Made by a program: the position numbers. From Escherichia coli O157:H7 (GTDB lineage: Bacteria > Pseudomonadota > Gammaproteobacteria > Enterobacterales > Enterobacteriaceae), in NCBI RefSeq assembly GCF_013167455.1, contig NZ_CP038328.1: a stretch of 64,000 nt of DNA; one strand, 5' to 3'. Below, piece by piece: positions 15,001 to 18,000 of the stretch (positions are counted from its first letter, which is position 1; each line of letters starts with the position of its first letter).

Positions 15001-18000
15001 CAGCCAGAGCCCGGCGCTGCTCCCTGGCTGCCGCAGCAGCCTGACGTCCGCCATTCTGCAGGGTCCGGTAATATTCACTGCCCATACGGGACGCCCGCTG
15101 GATCTCCGACTGGAATGACTGTGAATTTGCCGAAATTTTGATAATCAGTTCACGTAACGTCGCCATTCACCTTTCTCCGGGCGTAAAAAAACCGCCTCAG
15201 CGGTTCTCATCATTCATGACTGTGCTGCAAGGCTCAGCGCGTCTTCCAGCGCCGCAAACGGATCCACCTCCGGCTTATCCTCATCCTCGCCCCAGCAGAG
15301 CATGGCGTCCTTCAGTGCAACATTCATCCCCTGTGCCCCGAAAACCGCTTTCACGATCTGTGCATTACGGATATCCCCGCGCTCATCACCCAGCGGGGAT
15401 ATCCTGTCGAACTCCATCCACATCATCGCCTCGCTCGCACTCAGGCTGTGGCGCAGTTCGGATAAGGTGCGCCCCAGACGGAGCGCAAGTCGCATCAGAA
15501 AGCGAATTTCCGGGCGGGCTACTTTTTTCTGGCCGACTCTGCATCAGCGATCAGTTCCAGTGCCTGACGCAGCAACCGGGCATGTACCGGACCATAGACG
15601 GCCAGCACCTGCTCACGGTCGTCCGGAGTGAACACCCGCTGCAGGTCCGTATCACACAGGACATCGCAGAACAGCGTCACATCCGCTTCCAGGTTACGGC
15701 GGGTTTTCGCCACCACCGACAGGGTATCGTCATCCTCTCCATCACCATTGAGCACTTCCTGCCACAGATACCAGGCCTCTGCCGAAGGCTCCCGCAGCAC
15801 CACGCTGACATTACCCCATTCCGGCACCTTCACCGTTTTATGACGAAACCCTGACAGTCTGGCCAGCGCCAGCGTTTTCAGATCCTTTTTCATGATGACC
15901 CATCCCCTTATCCGGCGGCAGCGCTCACTGTCACGGTGCATTCAACAGACGTCACACTCTGTGCTTTCTCTGCCGAATCGGTCACCACACAGGTATATTT
16001 CCCCGCATCAGCGGACTGCGCACCTGGCTTACTGAAGGTGTCTGTCGTCTGCCCGTCAACCGGCTGACCATCCTTCTTCCAGGCGTATTTATACGGCGGC
16101 GTTCCCCCGTTGGCACTGACTGACATTGTCAGCAGCGCACCGGTATTCACGGTAAGTGTCTTATCCAGATTTTTCACAAACGCCAGCGGTACCACAAAGG
16201 ACACCGGTTTGCCTTTCAGACGCAGTGAGAACGTTGCAGCCACCACGCCGTTGGTACCGGATGACCAGGTGTGCTGGCGCACTTCCGCCAGGAATTTAAA
16301 GCCCTTACCGGACGGAAACAGCACCTTAAACGCATACAACGCGTCATTGTCATAGGCATCACGCAGGGCGTTCTGGGCCTGATTCAGATAAAAATTGCCC
16401 GACATGGAAATCTCAGACGACGCCCCCAGACCATTGATGTTCTCCTGCTCTGTGGAGCAGAGCGTGGTCACATCAATATCCTGTTTCTGCCCGGCGGTGA
16501 ACTGCACTTCCTTGATGGTGCAGTCCAGGCGCAGATATTCCGCCTTATCCATAGTTTCAGCAGTCGCCGGGGCAGATGAAATCATCACCTGCGTCAGCTG
16601 TGAGCGTTCATACAAAGCAGACATTCTGCCTCCTGATAATAAAAAACCCGCACGCGGCGGGGTATGGGTTTTGTAGAAAAAAGAAAAAGTCACACCGTGA
16701 CCTGAAACTCCAGGGTTGCACGGTAACAGCGGTTTTCCGGAATATAGTCCTGCATTTCACTGACGGATCCCGGGGCCAGCAGCATTATGGCTTCACGGGC
16801 GTCCTGACGTATCTGACGCGCCTGCGTCACAGTCCCGGCATAAACGTCTATCTGCACCGACACTGAGGACTCCGCCTGCCCGCCCATCACGTCCGCTGAC
16901 ACCGATGAAATCAGGCTGAAAACCACCCACGGAAGCGCCACCGACGGCCTGCCATCCAGCAGGGGGACCACATACGGGTACACCTGCCCGCCGGCAAGAT
17001 GCGCCAGATGAGGATACAAATCCGCCTCCGTCATCGTCTCAGTACCTCATCAATGGCCCGGTTCATCCGCGCAATCGCCACCTGTGCCGCCTGTTCACTG
17101 CGCACATCAAATGCCGGGCGCACAAACGGGTGCGGTGGCATATTCACGGTCCCCATTTCCACAAACCGCCAGTAGAAAGCATTGCGCGGGTTATCCGCCT
17201 TCATGGTGTTATCGCTGTTACCGGTGTCCGGATTAACACCCCGGATATGCACACCGGATTCCATCCCGCCATCGCGGGAGCACCGGGAAAGGACCACCAC
17301 ATTGCGGCGAAGTTTTCCCCTGCGTACCGGTGCCCGTGACACCACTTCTTCTTTCAGCACATTCGCACCCGCACGGGTTGCCTCACGCAGCACCCGGTTA
17401 TTTTCTGCACCACTCAGAAGCTGCAAATCGCGGCTGATGTCCTCCAGCCCCGAAAAATCCAGCAGGGTTTCGATCATTTTTCCCCTCCCAGCCGACAGAG
17501 AATTTCCAGACGTCCGCCGGTCGCATCCGGCACGGTCACGCCAGGGACCACTCAGCACATGAAGTCGTGACGCTGCCGTGATTTCCCGACCGGACTGACC
17601 GCGCACCCAGATGCGGATTTCCGCCTGCGCCATTTCCGCACCGGACTGCATCCGCTCCCGGCTGCTCCTGCCCCGGATATCCGCATGAATTTTCCCGCAT
17701 GACACCCATTCTTCCGTCATTTCTCCGGCAGCGTTACGGGTTAACACCGGGTTCAGAACACTTATCATCTGTGTCAGACGACCTGCAGATATTGCCATTC
17801 CCCCTCCTCATAACACCGTCGGACAACGCAAATCGTAAATCAGCACGGAAACAGAAAACGGCAGCTCCCCCTGAATCAGTTCTTCCCGCTCCGCAAGATC
17901 CGGATTCCGGTACAGCATCCCGGTCAGTCGCATGGCAGCCCCCTTCATCCGGGTTAATGCCTCGCCCGGGATCAGTTCACCGTCCTCACGAATCACCTTA

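What the first reader, a model, noticed from the sequence alone, without database searches (positions are those of the whole stretch)
15519..15535. G/T programmed -1 frameshift site
Gene G ends …GCC AGA AAA AAG TAG on the minus strand. The A-AAA-AAG heptamer is a canonical slippery site, and the -1 frame is open from there through the T ORF (…KKVARPEIRFLMRLALRLG…). The tail chaperone pair is therefore probably expressed as in lambda.
Basis: partly seen in the sequence, partly recalled or inferred. Interest (0 to 1): 0.25.

Follow-up and report, generated by a model that had tools for sequence, protein, structure and literature searches.

The report
Tail chaperone G-T frameshift site
This is the expected ribosome-slipping site that lets an E. 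coli O157:H7 prophage make a small amount of a fused G-T tail-assembly protein alongside plain G; it is real and conserved, but ordinary and already catalogued in the literature.

Summary
On the minus strand, gene G (15893..15519, 124 aa, Pfam Phage_TAC_1) ends ...GCC AGA AAA AAG TAG. The heptamer A_AAA_AAG (15528..15522) is in the phase needed for a -1 slip. The -1 frame is open from 15543 to 15214 and encodes a Phage_tail_T domain. The overlap in which a shift could join the two frames is only 25 nt, and this is the only in-phase slippery heptamer in it. The same A_AAA_AAG+TAG junction is kept in 11 distinct haplotypes and in diverged phages (Evi, Morganella IME1369_02, Vibrio Pm34). HK97 and Burkholderia KS9, from the same G family, carry CDSs joined from two pieces at this junction (HK97's is noted as a -1 frameshift), and HK97's AAG shift codon falls on the same alignment column. 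The T-frame ATG has no Shine-Dalgarno sequence, and the amino-acid sequence is conserved upstream of it. I found no conserved stimulatory structure or upstream SD. G belongs to the HK97 gp13 family, not lambda gpG's. The heptamer is the dnaX type and directly abuts the stop codon. The site was already published: Sharma et al. 2014, cluster A_AAA_AAG_25, gene ECs1801, 122/124 aa identical with an identical junction. RefSeq records still omit the joined CDS. Novelty: already known. Interest: low.

The parts
15519..15893 (-). Gene G: tail assembly chaperone, 124 aa, the product of normal translation
   Evidence: The ORF appears. It matches Pfam PF06222 Phage_TAC_1 over 1-124 of 124 profile positions, E 1e-61, and phrog_344 'tail assembly chaperone'. 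RefSeq annotates the identical gene as 'phage tail assembly chaperone'.
15522..15528 (-). Slippery heptamer A_AAA_AAG, in the phase X_XXY_YYZ relative to G
   Evidence: It is conserved in 11 junction haplotypes and in Evi, Morganella IME1369_02 and Vibrio Pm34. The AAG codon is the invariant column K124 of the G alignment.
15519..15521 (-). G stop codon TAG, immediately 3' of the heptamer (a possible 'shifty stop')
   Evidence: TAG follows the heptamer in every A_AAA_AAG lineage examined. Klebsiella phage 1 LV-2017 has only A_AAG followed by TAA.
15544..15546 (-). TGA stop in the -1 (T) frame. It sets the upstream limit of the 25-nt overlap in which a shift can join G to T.
15214..15522 (-). 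T-frame segment read after the shift: 102 codons plus stop. It begins with GTA, which reuses the G of AAG.
   Evidence: It matches Pfam PF06223 Phage_tail_T, E 2.5e-19, and phrog_337. phrog_14766 (224 positions) covers G plus T as one protein. The predicted fusion of 226 aa aligns end to end with the fusions predicted for HK97, Evi, KS9 and the other relatives compared.
15493..15495 (-). ATG used by public annotation as the start of a separate 93-aa 'protein T'. It is probably just an internal Met of GT.
   Evidence: Anti-SD pairing of the 22 nt upstream is -3.5 kcal/mol. The median for all ATGs is -3.0, and neighbouring real starts score -5.9 to -12.8. The amino-acid motif V-A-x-P-G-x-x-F-L is conserved upstream of this Met, and lambda and KS9 have no Met at this column.
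15469..15486 (-). Small hairpin GCGCUCC-GUCU-GGGGCGC, 35 nt downstream of the heptamer. It is probably a by-product of the conserved ALR(L/M)GR codons and not a stimulator.
   Evidence: It is the only helix kept in the consensus fold of 8 homologs, with 0 compensatory pairs. It lies too far from the shift site for a classical stimulator (inference).
15908..16624 (-). Upstream neighbour: major tail subunit with a C-terminal Ig-like domain (context that defines the G/T position)
   Evidence: RefSeq annotation of the identical region and Pfam Ig_3 on the product.
11924..15166 (-). Downstream neighbour: tail tape measure protein, 1080 aa (context)
   Evidence: The ORF is. It is annotated as tape measure. 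Pfam TMP_3, Phage_HK97_TLTM and Tape_meas_lam_C hit the product.

Best explanation
This is the programmed -1 ribosomal frameshift site of the tail assembly chaperone genes of a lambdoid (Stx-phage 2851/YYZ-2008-like) prophage of E. coli O157:H7. Most ribosomes translate G (124 aa) and terminate at TAG. A small fraction slip back one base on A_AAA_AAG. E. coli's single tRNA-Lys pairs weakly with AAG and re-pairs with AAA. The slip could be a tandem slip of the P- and A-site tRNAs, or a slip of the P-site tRNA-Lys while the slowly decoded UAG waits in the A site. Either way the next codon read is GTA, and translation continues for 102 codons to give a 226-aa G-T fusion (...ESARKK-VARPEIRFLM...). 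By analogy with lambda, G and the G part of GT coat the tape measure protein, and the T part recruits the major tail subunit. The fixed low GT:G ratio set by the slip frequency would be what tail assembly needs. What is shown here: the sequence, phase, open frame, protein families, conservation of the site, lack of an SD for T, and coding conservation upstream of T's ATG. What is inferred: that slipping happens, how often, and the roles of G and GT in assembly.
For: Sequence and frames. G is a full-length Phage_TAC_1 match and the -1 ORF is Phage_tail_T. One PHROG profile spans both as a fusion. The pair lies between the major tail subunit and the tape measure genes. There is a single in-phase heptamer in a 25-nt overlap. 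In Evi the overlap is only 10 nt, just long enough to hold the heptamer. Eleven junction haplotypes keep A_AAA_AAG_TAG while neighbouring codons vary. The same motif occurs in Evi (68% aa identity), Morganella IME1369_02 (56%) and Vibrio Pm34 (48%). HK97 and Burkholderia KS9 homologs carry CDSs joined from two pieces at this junction, and HK97's record notes 'translated due to a -1 frameshift'. HK97's AAG shift codon is in the same alignment column, which is invariant. T's ATG has background-level SD pairing. The protein sequence is conserved upstream of it, and lambda and KS9 lack the Met. In the window-wide control, this is the only in-phase heptamer at the extreme 3' end of a gene that also opens a long -1 ORF, and here both reading frames have Pfam support. 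Several of the other hits lie antisense to minus-strand genes or inside a larger ORF. Literature: A_AAA_AAG is among the most shift-prone heptamers in E. coli because of its sole tRNA-Lys (PMC5009743; PMC4066793). G-T frameshifting is widely conserved in long-tailed phages, with a 30:1 product ratio in lambda (PMC5009743). The 'shifty stop' principle is described in PMC3082878. The same gene family with this motif is listed as a safely inferred -1 PRF case (PMC4066793 Table S4), and ECs_1801 has the identical junction.
Against: There is no experimental evidence for this phage. The published cluster is 'safely inferred', not demonstrated. No conserved stimulator was found. Upstream SD pairing is at background. 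Downstream folding z-scores range from +0.26 to -3.05, the folds differ between relatives, and no pair shows a compensatory change. Bare V_VVA_AAG heptamers gave only about 0.3% frameshifting in reporters (PMC4066793), roughly tenfold below lambda's approximately 1:30 ratio. An in-frame ATG exists in the T frame 23 nt after G's stop, and RefSeq/GenBank annotate G and T as two separate genes.
Confidence: 0.88

Rival explanations
1. T is made as a separate 93-aa protein from its own ATG (15495), as public annotation has it. Ribosomes terminating at G's TAG 23 nt upstream might re-initiate there. The heptamer would then be irrelevant or only a minor route.
For: RefSeq, PGAP and GenBank records annotate a separate 'phage tail assembly protein T' starting at this ATG. 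Most members of the HK97-like group have a Met at or near this column, and some have further ATGs closer to the G stop.
Against: SD pairing is at background level (-3.5 against a median of -3.0; real starts score -5.9 to -12.8). [quoted passage not shown] Lambda and KS9 have no Met there, yet share the T domain. The heptamer and its phase are conserved where flanking codons vary. This route does not exclude frameshifting; it could at most add to it.
Confidence: 0.06
2. The fusion arises from transcriptional slippage. RNA polymerase would add one A in the A-run, giving an mRNA in which G and T are in the same frame. The protein would be identical to the product of a -1 ribosomal shift.
For: Inserting one A gives exactly ...RKKVARP... 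(reasoned from the sequence; the natural A7 allele in CP043015.1 encodes exactly the 226-aa fusion). Some relatives have longer runs: 8 A in Evi, 7 in Morganella and Vibrio.
Against: The window has only 6 A. [quoted passage not shown] Family members keep the shift column with runs of only 3-4 A: HK97 GAA AAG, mEp390 and lambda GGA AAG, Klebsiella GCA AAG. What is conserved is therefore A_AAG in phase, not run length.
Confidence: 0.04
3. The heptamer is a chance feature of a Lys-Lys C-terminus, and no fusion is made.
For: AAAAAAG is common in this window, 29 copies. AAA and AAG are ordinary Lys codons here, 41 and 24 in V, G and H.
Against: The chance of it falling in phase in the overlap is about 1.4e-3. 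It recurs in lineages down to 48% aa identity, and annotated frameshifts occur at or near the same column in homologs. The -1 frame is open and encodes a conserved protein right from the shift point.
Confidence: 0.02

Closest known systems
Cluster A_AAA_AAG_25 (gene ECs1801, E. coli O157:H7 Sakai prophage Sp9) of Sharma et al. 2014, NAR 42:7210 (PMC4066793); also GeneTack programmed-frameshift cluster #10
   Same: It is the same gene family and the same site. ECs_1801 is 122/124 aa and 365/375 nt identical to the window's G, and its junction GCC AGA AAA AAG TAG CCC GCC CGG... is identical. The paper marks it [true] with a longer frameshift product, no upstream SD, and a candidate hairpin no better than the local average (ΔΔG 0.020 ± 0.023). 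This agrees with my folds.
   Different: The window is a different prophage copy (2851/YYZ-2008-like) from Sp9. The paper infers frameshifting for this cluster and did not measure it.
Phage HK97 gp13 / gp14 (G and G-T analogues), annotated -1 frameshift
   Same: G is in the same Pfam family, PF06222, at 63% aa identity. The T domain and gene order are the same, and the shift codon AAG is in the same alignment column. The predicted fusion is 224 aa against 226 aa here.
   Different: HK97's site reads G_GAA_AAG in G's frame, and G continues for 5 more codons (SQPPA) before its stop. Here the site is A_AAA_AAG and the stop follows at once.
Phage lambda G / G-T (Levin, Hendrix and Casjens 1993; Xu, Hendrix and Duda 2004, 2013, 2014, as summarised in PMC5009743)
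   Same: It has the same genome position between the major tail and tape measure genes, and a -1 shift near the 3' end of G into a T frame. The T part is in the same Pfam family, PF06223, and no stimulator is evident in either.
   Different: Lambda gpG is PF06894 (Phage_TAC_2) and has no detectable pairwise similarity to this G. Its heptamer is G_GGA_AAG, 15 nt before the stop. Lambda T is longer, 144 against 102 codons, and lacks the internal Met.
E. coli dnaX (tau/gamma) -1 frameshift
   Same: It uses the identical slippery heptamer A_AAA_AAG and depends on the weak AAG pairing of the sole tRNA-Lys (PMC5009743).
   Different: dnaX uses an upstream SD-like element and a downstream stem-loop, reaches about 50% efficiency, and gives a shorter product (established knowledge). 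Here no upstream SD and no conserved stem-loop was found, and the product is longer.
Burkholderia phage KS9 gp11 / gp12 (CDS joined from two pieces)
   Same: G is a Phage_TAC_1-type protein at 36% identity with the same T domain, and the fusion is annotated as a two-piece CDS.
   Different: The A-rich heptamer (A_AAA_AAA) lies 33 nt before the G stop, and there is no Met at the T 'start' column.

Membership tests
G/GT tail assembly chaperone pair expressed by programmed -1 frameshift (lambda paradigm; Xu et al. 2004) | Two ORFs lie between the major tail protein gene and the tape measure gene, and the second overlaps the first in the -1 frame | tested here: met
   The order is V (15908..16624), G (15519..15893), T frame (15214..15543), H (11924..15166), all on the minus strand.
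G/GT tail assembly chaperone pair expressed by programmed -1 frameshift (lambda paradigm; Xu et al. 2004) | A slippery sequence in the correct phase inside the overlap, conserved among relatives | tested here: met
   A_AAA_AAG is the sole in-phase heptamer in the 25-nt overlap. It is conserved across 11 haplotypes and 3 diverged phages. An A_AAG core sits at the same column in the nine aligned HK97-like relatives and at the corresponding site in lambda. In Burkholderia phi644-2 and KS9 the A-rich heptamer lies 33 nt before the G stop, and KS9's ends in AAA, not AAG.
G/GT tail assembly chaperone pair expressed by programmed -1 frameshift (lambda paradigm; Xu et al. 2004) | The downstream ORF is not translated on its own (no independent initiation) | tested here: inconclusive
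   SD pairing is at background and coding conservation extends upstream of the ATG, both arguing against independent initiation. An ATG is present, however, and only an experiment can exclude its use.
G/GT tail assembly chaperone pair expressed by programmed -1 frameshift (lambda paradigm; Xu et al. 2004) | G and GT are both produced, at a low fixed GT:G ratio, and both are required for tail assembly but absent from virions | not testable with these tools
   This needs protein detection and genetics. The lambda values come from PMC5009743.
Pfam PF06222 Phage_TAC_1 (HK97 gp13-type chaperone) | Score above the gathering threshold over the full profile | tested here: met
   206.7 bits against a cutoff of 25, over 1-124 of 124 positions. 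HK97 gp13 scores 203.3 bits.
Pfam PF06894 Phage_TAC_2 (lambda gpG family) | Score above the gathering threshold, or pairwise similarity to lambda gpG | tested here: not met
   There is no PF06894 hit for the window's G at E <= 0.01. BLASTP against lambda gpG gives E 6.3. Lambda gpG itself hits PF06894.
Pfam PF06223 Phage_tail_T | Score above the gathering threshold | tested here: met
   69.9 bits against a cutoff of 25.9. Lambda T scores 54.1 bits, although the two do not align by BLASTP.
dnaX-type stimulated A_AAA_AAG frameshift cassette | An SD-like element about 6-17 nt upstream of the heptamer | tested here: not met
   Anti-SD pairing of the upstream 20 nt is -3.0 kcal/mol against a background median of -2.9. 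Only Evi has a stronger match, -7.2. Sharma et al. also score SD = N.
dnaX-type stimulated A_AAA_AAG frameshift cassette | A stable stem-loop or pseudoknot starting about 5-9 nt downstream, conserved with covariation | tested here: inconclusive
   The window's 130 nt starting 5 nt downstream fold with z = -2.4. Evi gives -3.05 and mEp390 -2.2, but Morganella, Vibrio, HK97 and Klebsiella give about 0, and the folds differ. The consensus keeps only a hairpin 35 nt downstream, with 0 compensatory pairs.
Published cluster A_AAA_AAG_25 / ECs1801 (Sharma et al. 2014) | Orthology or close paralogy to ECs1801, with the motif at the same place | tested here: met
   122/124 aa identity and an identical junction sequence.

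The most novel reading that the evidence does not exclude
In this HK97-type chaperone subfamily, the conserved unit may be A_AAG plus an adjacent stop codon, not the heptamer. Four lineages have A_AAA_AAG_UAG followed by C. A Klebsiella phage has only GCA_AAG_UAA, where tandem slippage is impossible. Slippage would then occur mainly when tRNA-Lys sits in the P site and a slowly decoded stop is in the A site (a -1 'shifty stop'). The GT:G ratio would depend on release-factor kinetics (RF1 for UAG), so it could vary with host physiology and would not be a fixed constant as assumed for lambda.
Probability: 0.25. Interest if true: 0.3.

Novelty: already known. Interest (0 to 1): 0.1.

Why it matters
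Scientifically it matters little. It is another instance of the conserved G-T recoding of long-tailed phages, and this gene family and motif were already listed as a safely inferred case in 2014. It has some practical value for annotation. RefSeq/PGAP and the phage GenBank records for these Stx-converting prophages still show G and a truncated 'protein T' as separate genes. The real second product, a 226-aa G-T fusion, is therefore missing from protein databases, apart from one genome where an extra A fuses the frames. The adjacency of the heptamer to the stop codon, together with a tetramer-plus-stop variant in a Klebsiella phage, offers a small testable question about how the slip frequency is set.

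Tried and rejected
1. Downstream stimulatory structure. I folded 121 nt around the site (z = 0.14) and the 130 nt starting 5 nt downstream in the window and 7 relatives, and built a consensus fold of 8 homologs. No shared structure emerged and no pair covaried. The only common hairpin (15486..15469) lies 35 nt away and overlaps conserved ALR(L/M)GR codons. I rejected it as a conserved stimulator. A clade-specific weak structure in the O157 and Evi groups is not excluded.

2. Upstream SD-like stimulator: at background level.

3. Heptamer rarity as an argument: rejected, because AAAAAAG is over-represented in the window. The argument rests on phase, position and conservation.

4. Other in-phase heptamers followed by long -1 ORFs in the window. 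None combines a position at the 3' end of a supported gene with a supported -1 ORF. Several lie on the strand opposite the minus-strand genes listed, and the one at 55930 lies in a short ORF inside a 1169-aa ORF. I did not examine each one.

5. NCBIfam gave no hits for G or for the GT fusion.

6. A full-text search for 'ECs1801' found nothing. The link was made through the paper's supplement and the Sakai record.

7. A phage-borne tRNA-Arg(UCU) for the AGA codon that supplies the heptamer's first A: the window holds no tRNA genes, although Sakai Sp9 carries argO.

8. My first protein-alignment call failed on frame errors and was redone in Python.
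Full report
**1. The observation**

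The minus strand of 15535..15519 reads CGGCC AGA AAA AAG TAG. The ORF that ends there is 15893..15519, 124 aa from the Met chosen by RefSeq, and finishes ...LIADAESARKK*. AAAAAAG occupies 15528..15522. Relative to G's frame it is phased A_AAA_AAG, so the zero-frame codons AAA and AAG sit in the P and A sites, as the tandem-slippage model requires.

After a one-base backward shift the next codons are GTA GCC CGC CCG GAA ATT CGC TTT CTG ATG CGA..., that is VARPEIRFLMRLALRLG.... The frame stays open to the stop at 15216..15214.

The T frame is closed just upstream by TGA at 15546..15544. A shift can therefore join G to T only within 25 nt, and A_AAA_AAG is the only in-phase X_XXY_YYZ heptamer there.

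**2. Is it more than chance?**

The heptamer by itself is not rare: 29 copies in the window on both strands, against 14 ± 3.5 in shuffles. At the window's own rate, the chance of one landing in phase at one of the roughly six usable positions is about 1.4e-3. For any X_XXY_YYZ it is about 3.5e-2.

In a window-wide control I listed every in-phase heptamer in stop-to-stop ORFs of at least 100 codons that opens at least 60 codons in the -1 frame. The 15528 site is the only one lying at the extreme 3' end of its ORF (3 nt from the end), and it is the one where both reading frames have Pfam support. Several of the others lie antisense to minus-strand genes or inside a larger ORF; I did not examine each one.

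The stronger argument is conservation, covered in section 4.

**3. What the genes are**

- G is a full-length match to Pfam PF06222 Phage_TAC_1 (1-124 of 124 positions, E 1e-61).
- The -1 ORF matches PF06223 Phage_tail_T (E 2.5e-19).
- In PHROGs, G hits 'tail assembly chaperone'. One 224-position profile, phrog_14766, covers G (positions 2-122) and T (125-224) as a single protein.
- Upstream lies the major tail subunit with an Ig-like C-terminus. Downstream lies the 1080-aa tape measure protein.
- The region is 99-100% identical to lambdoid prophages of E. coli O157:H7 and to Stx-converting phages such as 2851 and YYZ-2008 (genus Pankowvirus). It occurs in 1245 of 5426 complete E. coli genomes, with a median of 1 and up to 7 copies per genome.

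**4. Conservation of the site**

Among 80 related viral contigs plus the reference loci there are 12 distinct junction sequences. Eleven keep A AAA AAG TAG while neighbouring codons vary (GCC/GTC/GCA, GAG/GGG, TCG/GCG, and so on). The twelfth is the HK97 type.

Sites in more distant members of the same G family:

| Phage(s) | Site |
|---|---|
| Evi, 689R5 (68% aa identity) | GTT AAA AAA AAG TAG |
| Morganella IME1369_02 (56%) | GAA AAA AAG TAG |
| Vibrio Pm34 (48%) | GAA AAA AAG TAG |
| HK97, LAU1, Cronobacter ENT39118 | G_GAA_AAG |
| mEp390 and lambda | G_GGA_AAG |
| Klebsiella phage 1 LV-2017 | GCA AAG TAA |
| Burkholderia phi644-2 | A_AAA_AAG, 33 nt before the stop |
| Burkholderia KS9 | A_AAA_AAA, 33 nt before the stop |

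In Evi the T-frame stop lies immediately before the run, so the overlap is just 10 nt and the heptamer is the only place a shift could occur.

The AAG codon is an invariant column (K124) of the G alignment. HK97 and KS9 carry CDSs joined from two pieces at this junction, and HK97's record notes 'translated due to a -1 frameshift'.

I built the predicted fusions by shifting at the A_AAG of each phage (A_AAA in KS9). They align without a break from the shift codon through the T domain and are of similar length: 224-229 aa in the HK97-like group, 226 aa here.

**5. Is T translated on its own?**

Public records annotate T as a separate 93-aa protein starting at ATG 15495. Three observations argue that this Met is internal to GT.

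- The 22 nt upstream pair with the anti-SD at -3.5 kcal/mol. The median for all 1355 minus-strand ATGs is -3.0, and neighbouring true starts score -5.9 to -12.8.
- The nine codons between the shift point and the ATG are conserved as protein in the T frame (V-[AS]-x-P-G-x-x-F-L-M) across relatives whose DNA differs.
- Lambda and KS9 have no Met at that column.

Independent or re-initiated translation of T cannot be excluded by sequence alone, so I keep it as a minor rival.

**6. Stimulators**

- dnaX, which uses the same heptamer, needs an upstream SD-like element and a downstream stem-loop. Here the upstream 20 nt pair with the anti-SD at -3.0 against a background median of -2.9.
- The 121 nt around the site fold no better than shuffles (z = 0.14).
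- The 130 nt starting 5 nt downstream fold with z = -2.4 in the window, -3.05 in Evi and -2.2 in mEp390. In Morganella, Vibrio, HK97 and Klebsiella the values lie between -0.5 and +0.3, and in lambda -1.0. The predicted folds differ between phages.
- The consensus fold of eight homologs keeps only GCGCUCC-N4-GGGGCGC, 35 nt downstream (15486..15469). None of the 11 predicted pairs shows a compensatory change, and the helix overlaps the conserved ALR(L/M)GR codons.

I conclude there is no conserved stimulator. This agrees with Sharma et al., who scored SD = N and a candidate hairpin of 130 nt with a 5-nt spacer whose ΔΔG (0.020 ± 0.023) is indistinguishable from the local average.

**7. Mechanism**

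E. coli has a single tRNA-Lys, which pairs weakly with AAG and better with AAA. This makes A_AAA_AAG one of the most shift-prone heptamers in this host (PMC5009743; PMC4066793). Two routes give the same product...RKK-VARP...:

- a tandem slip of the two tRNA-Lys from AAA AAG to AAA AAA;
- a slip of the P-site tRNA-Lys from AAG to AAA while UAG waits in the A site. This is the 'shifty stop' principle, in which a slowly decoded stop combines with a P-site tRNA able to re-pair in the overlapping frame (PMC3082878).

The Klebsiella variant GCA_AAG_TAA cannot slip in tandem, which suggests the second route can suffice in this family. That is an inference.

Bare V_VVA_AAG heptamers gave about 0.3% frameshifting in reporters, rising to at most about 3.7% in favourable 3' contexts. 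Lambda needs a G:GT ratio of about 30:1. The expected level here is therefore of the order of 0.3-4%, and it has not been measured.

Functions follow the lambda model. G and the G part of GT bind the tape measure protein, T binds the major tail subunit, and neither is in the virion (PMC5009743). This is inferred from homology of the T domain and from synteny.

Transcriptional slippage would give the identical protein. It is unlikely to be the main route with only six As, since efficient slippage was shown for runs of 9. Relatives also keep the site with runs of 3-4 As.

**8. Comparison with what is known**

The system works like lambda G/GT, but it is not a member of lambda gpG's protein family. 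Lambda gpG is PF06894 and does not align with this G (E 6.3). This G and HK97 gp13 are both PF06222. The T parts share PF06223 although they do not align by BLASTP.

The closest characterised relative is HK97 gp13/gp14. The exact site is already in the literature. Table S4 of Sharma et al. 2014 lists prophage cluster A_AAA_AAG_25, 53 genes, representative ECs1801, 'tail assembly chaperone; [true]', with a longer frameshift product. A footnote says -1 PRF 'can be safely inferred', and Table S7 links the cluster to GeneTack cluster #10. ECs_1801 of Sakai prophage Sp9 is 122/124 aa identical to the window's G and has the identical junction.

**9. Verdict**

The feature is real and under selection, but it is ordinary and already known. 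The remaining points of interest are minor:

- the missing joined CDS in current annotation;
- the possible role of the adjacent stop codon;
- one assembly (CP043015.1) whose A7 run fuses G and T into a single 226-aa ORF.

Noticed in passing
L096:1501-2181 (CP043015.1, GCA_008086485.1); corresponds to window 15528: One E. coli assembly has 7 As where the window has 6, and is otherwise nearly identical (1 other difference in 801 nt). G and T therefore form a single 226-aa ORF identical to the predicted frameshift product. This is either a homopolymer sequencing error or a real mutation. A real one would give GT only and no G, and probably a tail-defective prophage.
   Followed up: partly
window 15214..15495 (-); L001, L002, L097: RefSeq/PGAP and GenBank annotate T as a separate protein: 93 aa named 'phage tail assembly protein T' or 'DUF4035 domain-containing protein'. 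In Sakai, ECs_1802 is only 69 aa. None of the O157 or Stx-phage records examined has a joined CDS, whereas HK97 and KS9 do.
   Followed up: yes
L091:1088-1110 (Klebsiella phage 1 LV-2017): This homolog's G ends GCT AAA GCA AAG TAA. There is no heptamer, only the tetramer A_AAG followed by a stop, yet the -1 frame opens 7 nt before the G stop codon and encodes the conserved T sequence (SKVKMPGMQFLM...). This suggests single-tRNA slippage at a stop codon.
   Followed up: partly
L003:933-941 (HK97): In G's frame the HK97 site reads CGG GAA AAG, that is G_GAA_AAG, not the textbook G_GGA_AAG. P-site re-pairing (GAA to GGA) would therefore be imperfect. The A_AAG part is what HK97 shares with the window.
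   Followed up: partly
window 18597..19129 (inside minus-strand ORF 18137..20716, annotated as portal protein in Sakai, ECs_1795): There is a 162-bp tandem repeat of 3.3 copies at 95% identity. It encodes 54-aa repeats (…PVPRDGRDYDPEVLQKAVNDAVANIPQPADGKSLTPDDVRPMLEQMVKEAVSHI…) in the C-terminal half of an 859-aa portal-like protein.
   Followed up: partly
window 15469..15486 (-): The hairpin GCGCUCC-GUCU-GGGGCGC is nearly invariant at the DNA level across homologs down to about 50% protein identity. It overlaps the conserved ALR(L/M)GR motif and shows no compensatory changes, so a structural role is unproven.
   Followed up: yes
window, whole: AAAAAAG occurs 29 times against about 14 expected from dinucleotide shuffles (0 of 100 shuffles reach 29). 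Another in-phase copy at 30133 (+) in ORF 30101..30478 opens 66 codons in the -1 frame but ends before the zero-frame stop.
   Followed up: no
L097:4080-4312 (Sakai Sp9) versus window: Sakai prophage Sp9 carries tRNA-Ile(CAT) and tRNA-Arg(TCT, which reads AGA). The window has no tRNA genes, although the codon supplying the first A of the heptamer is the rare AGA (8 of 87 Arg codons in V, G and H).
   Followed up: partly
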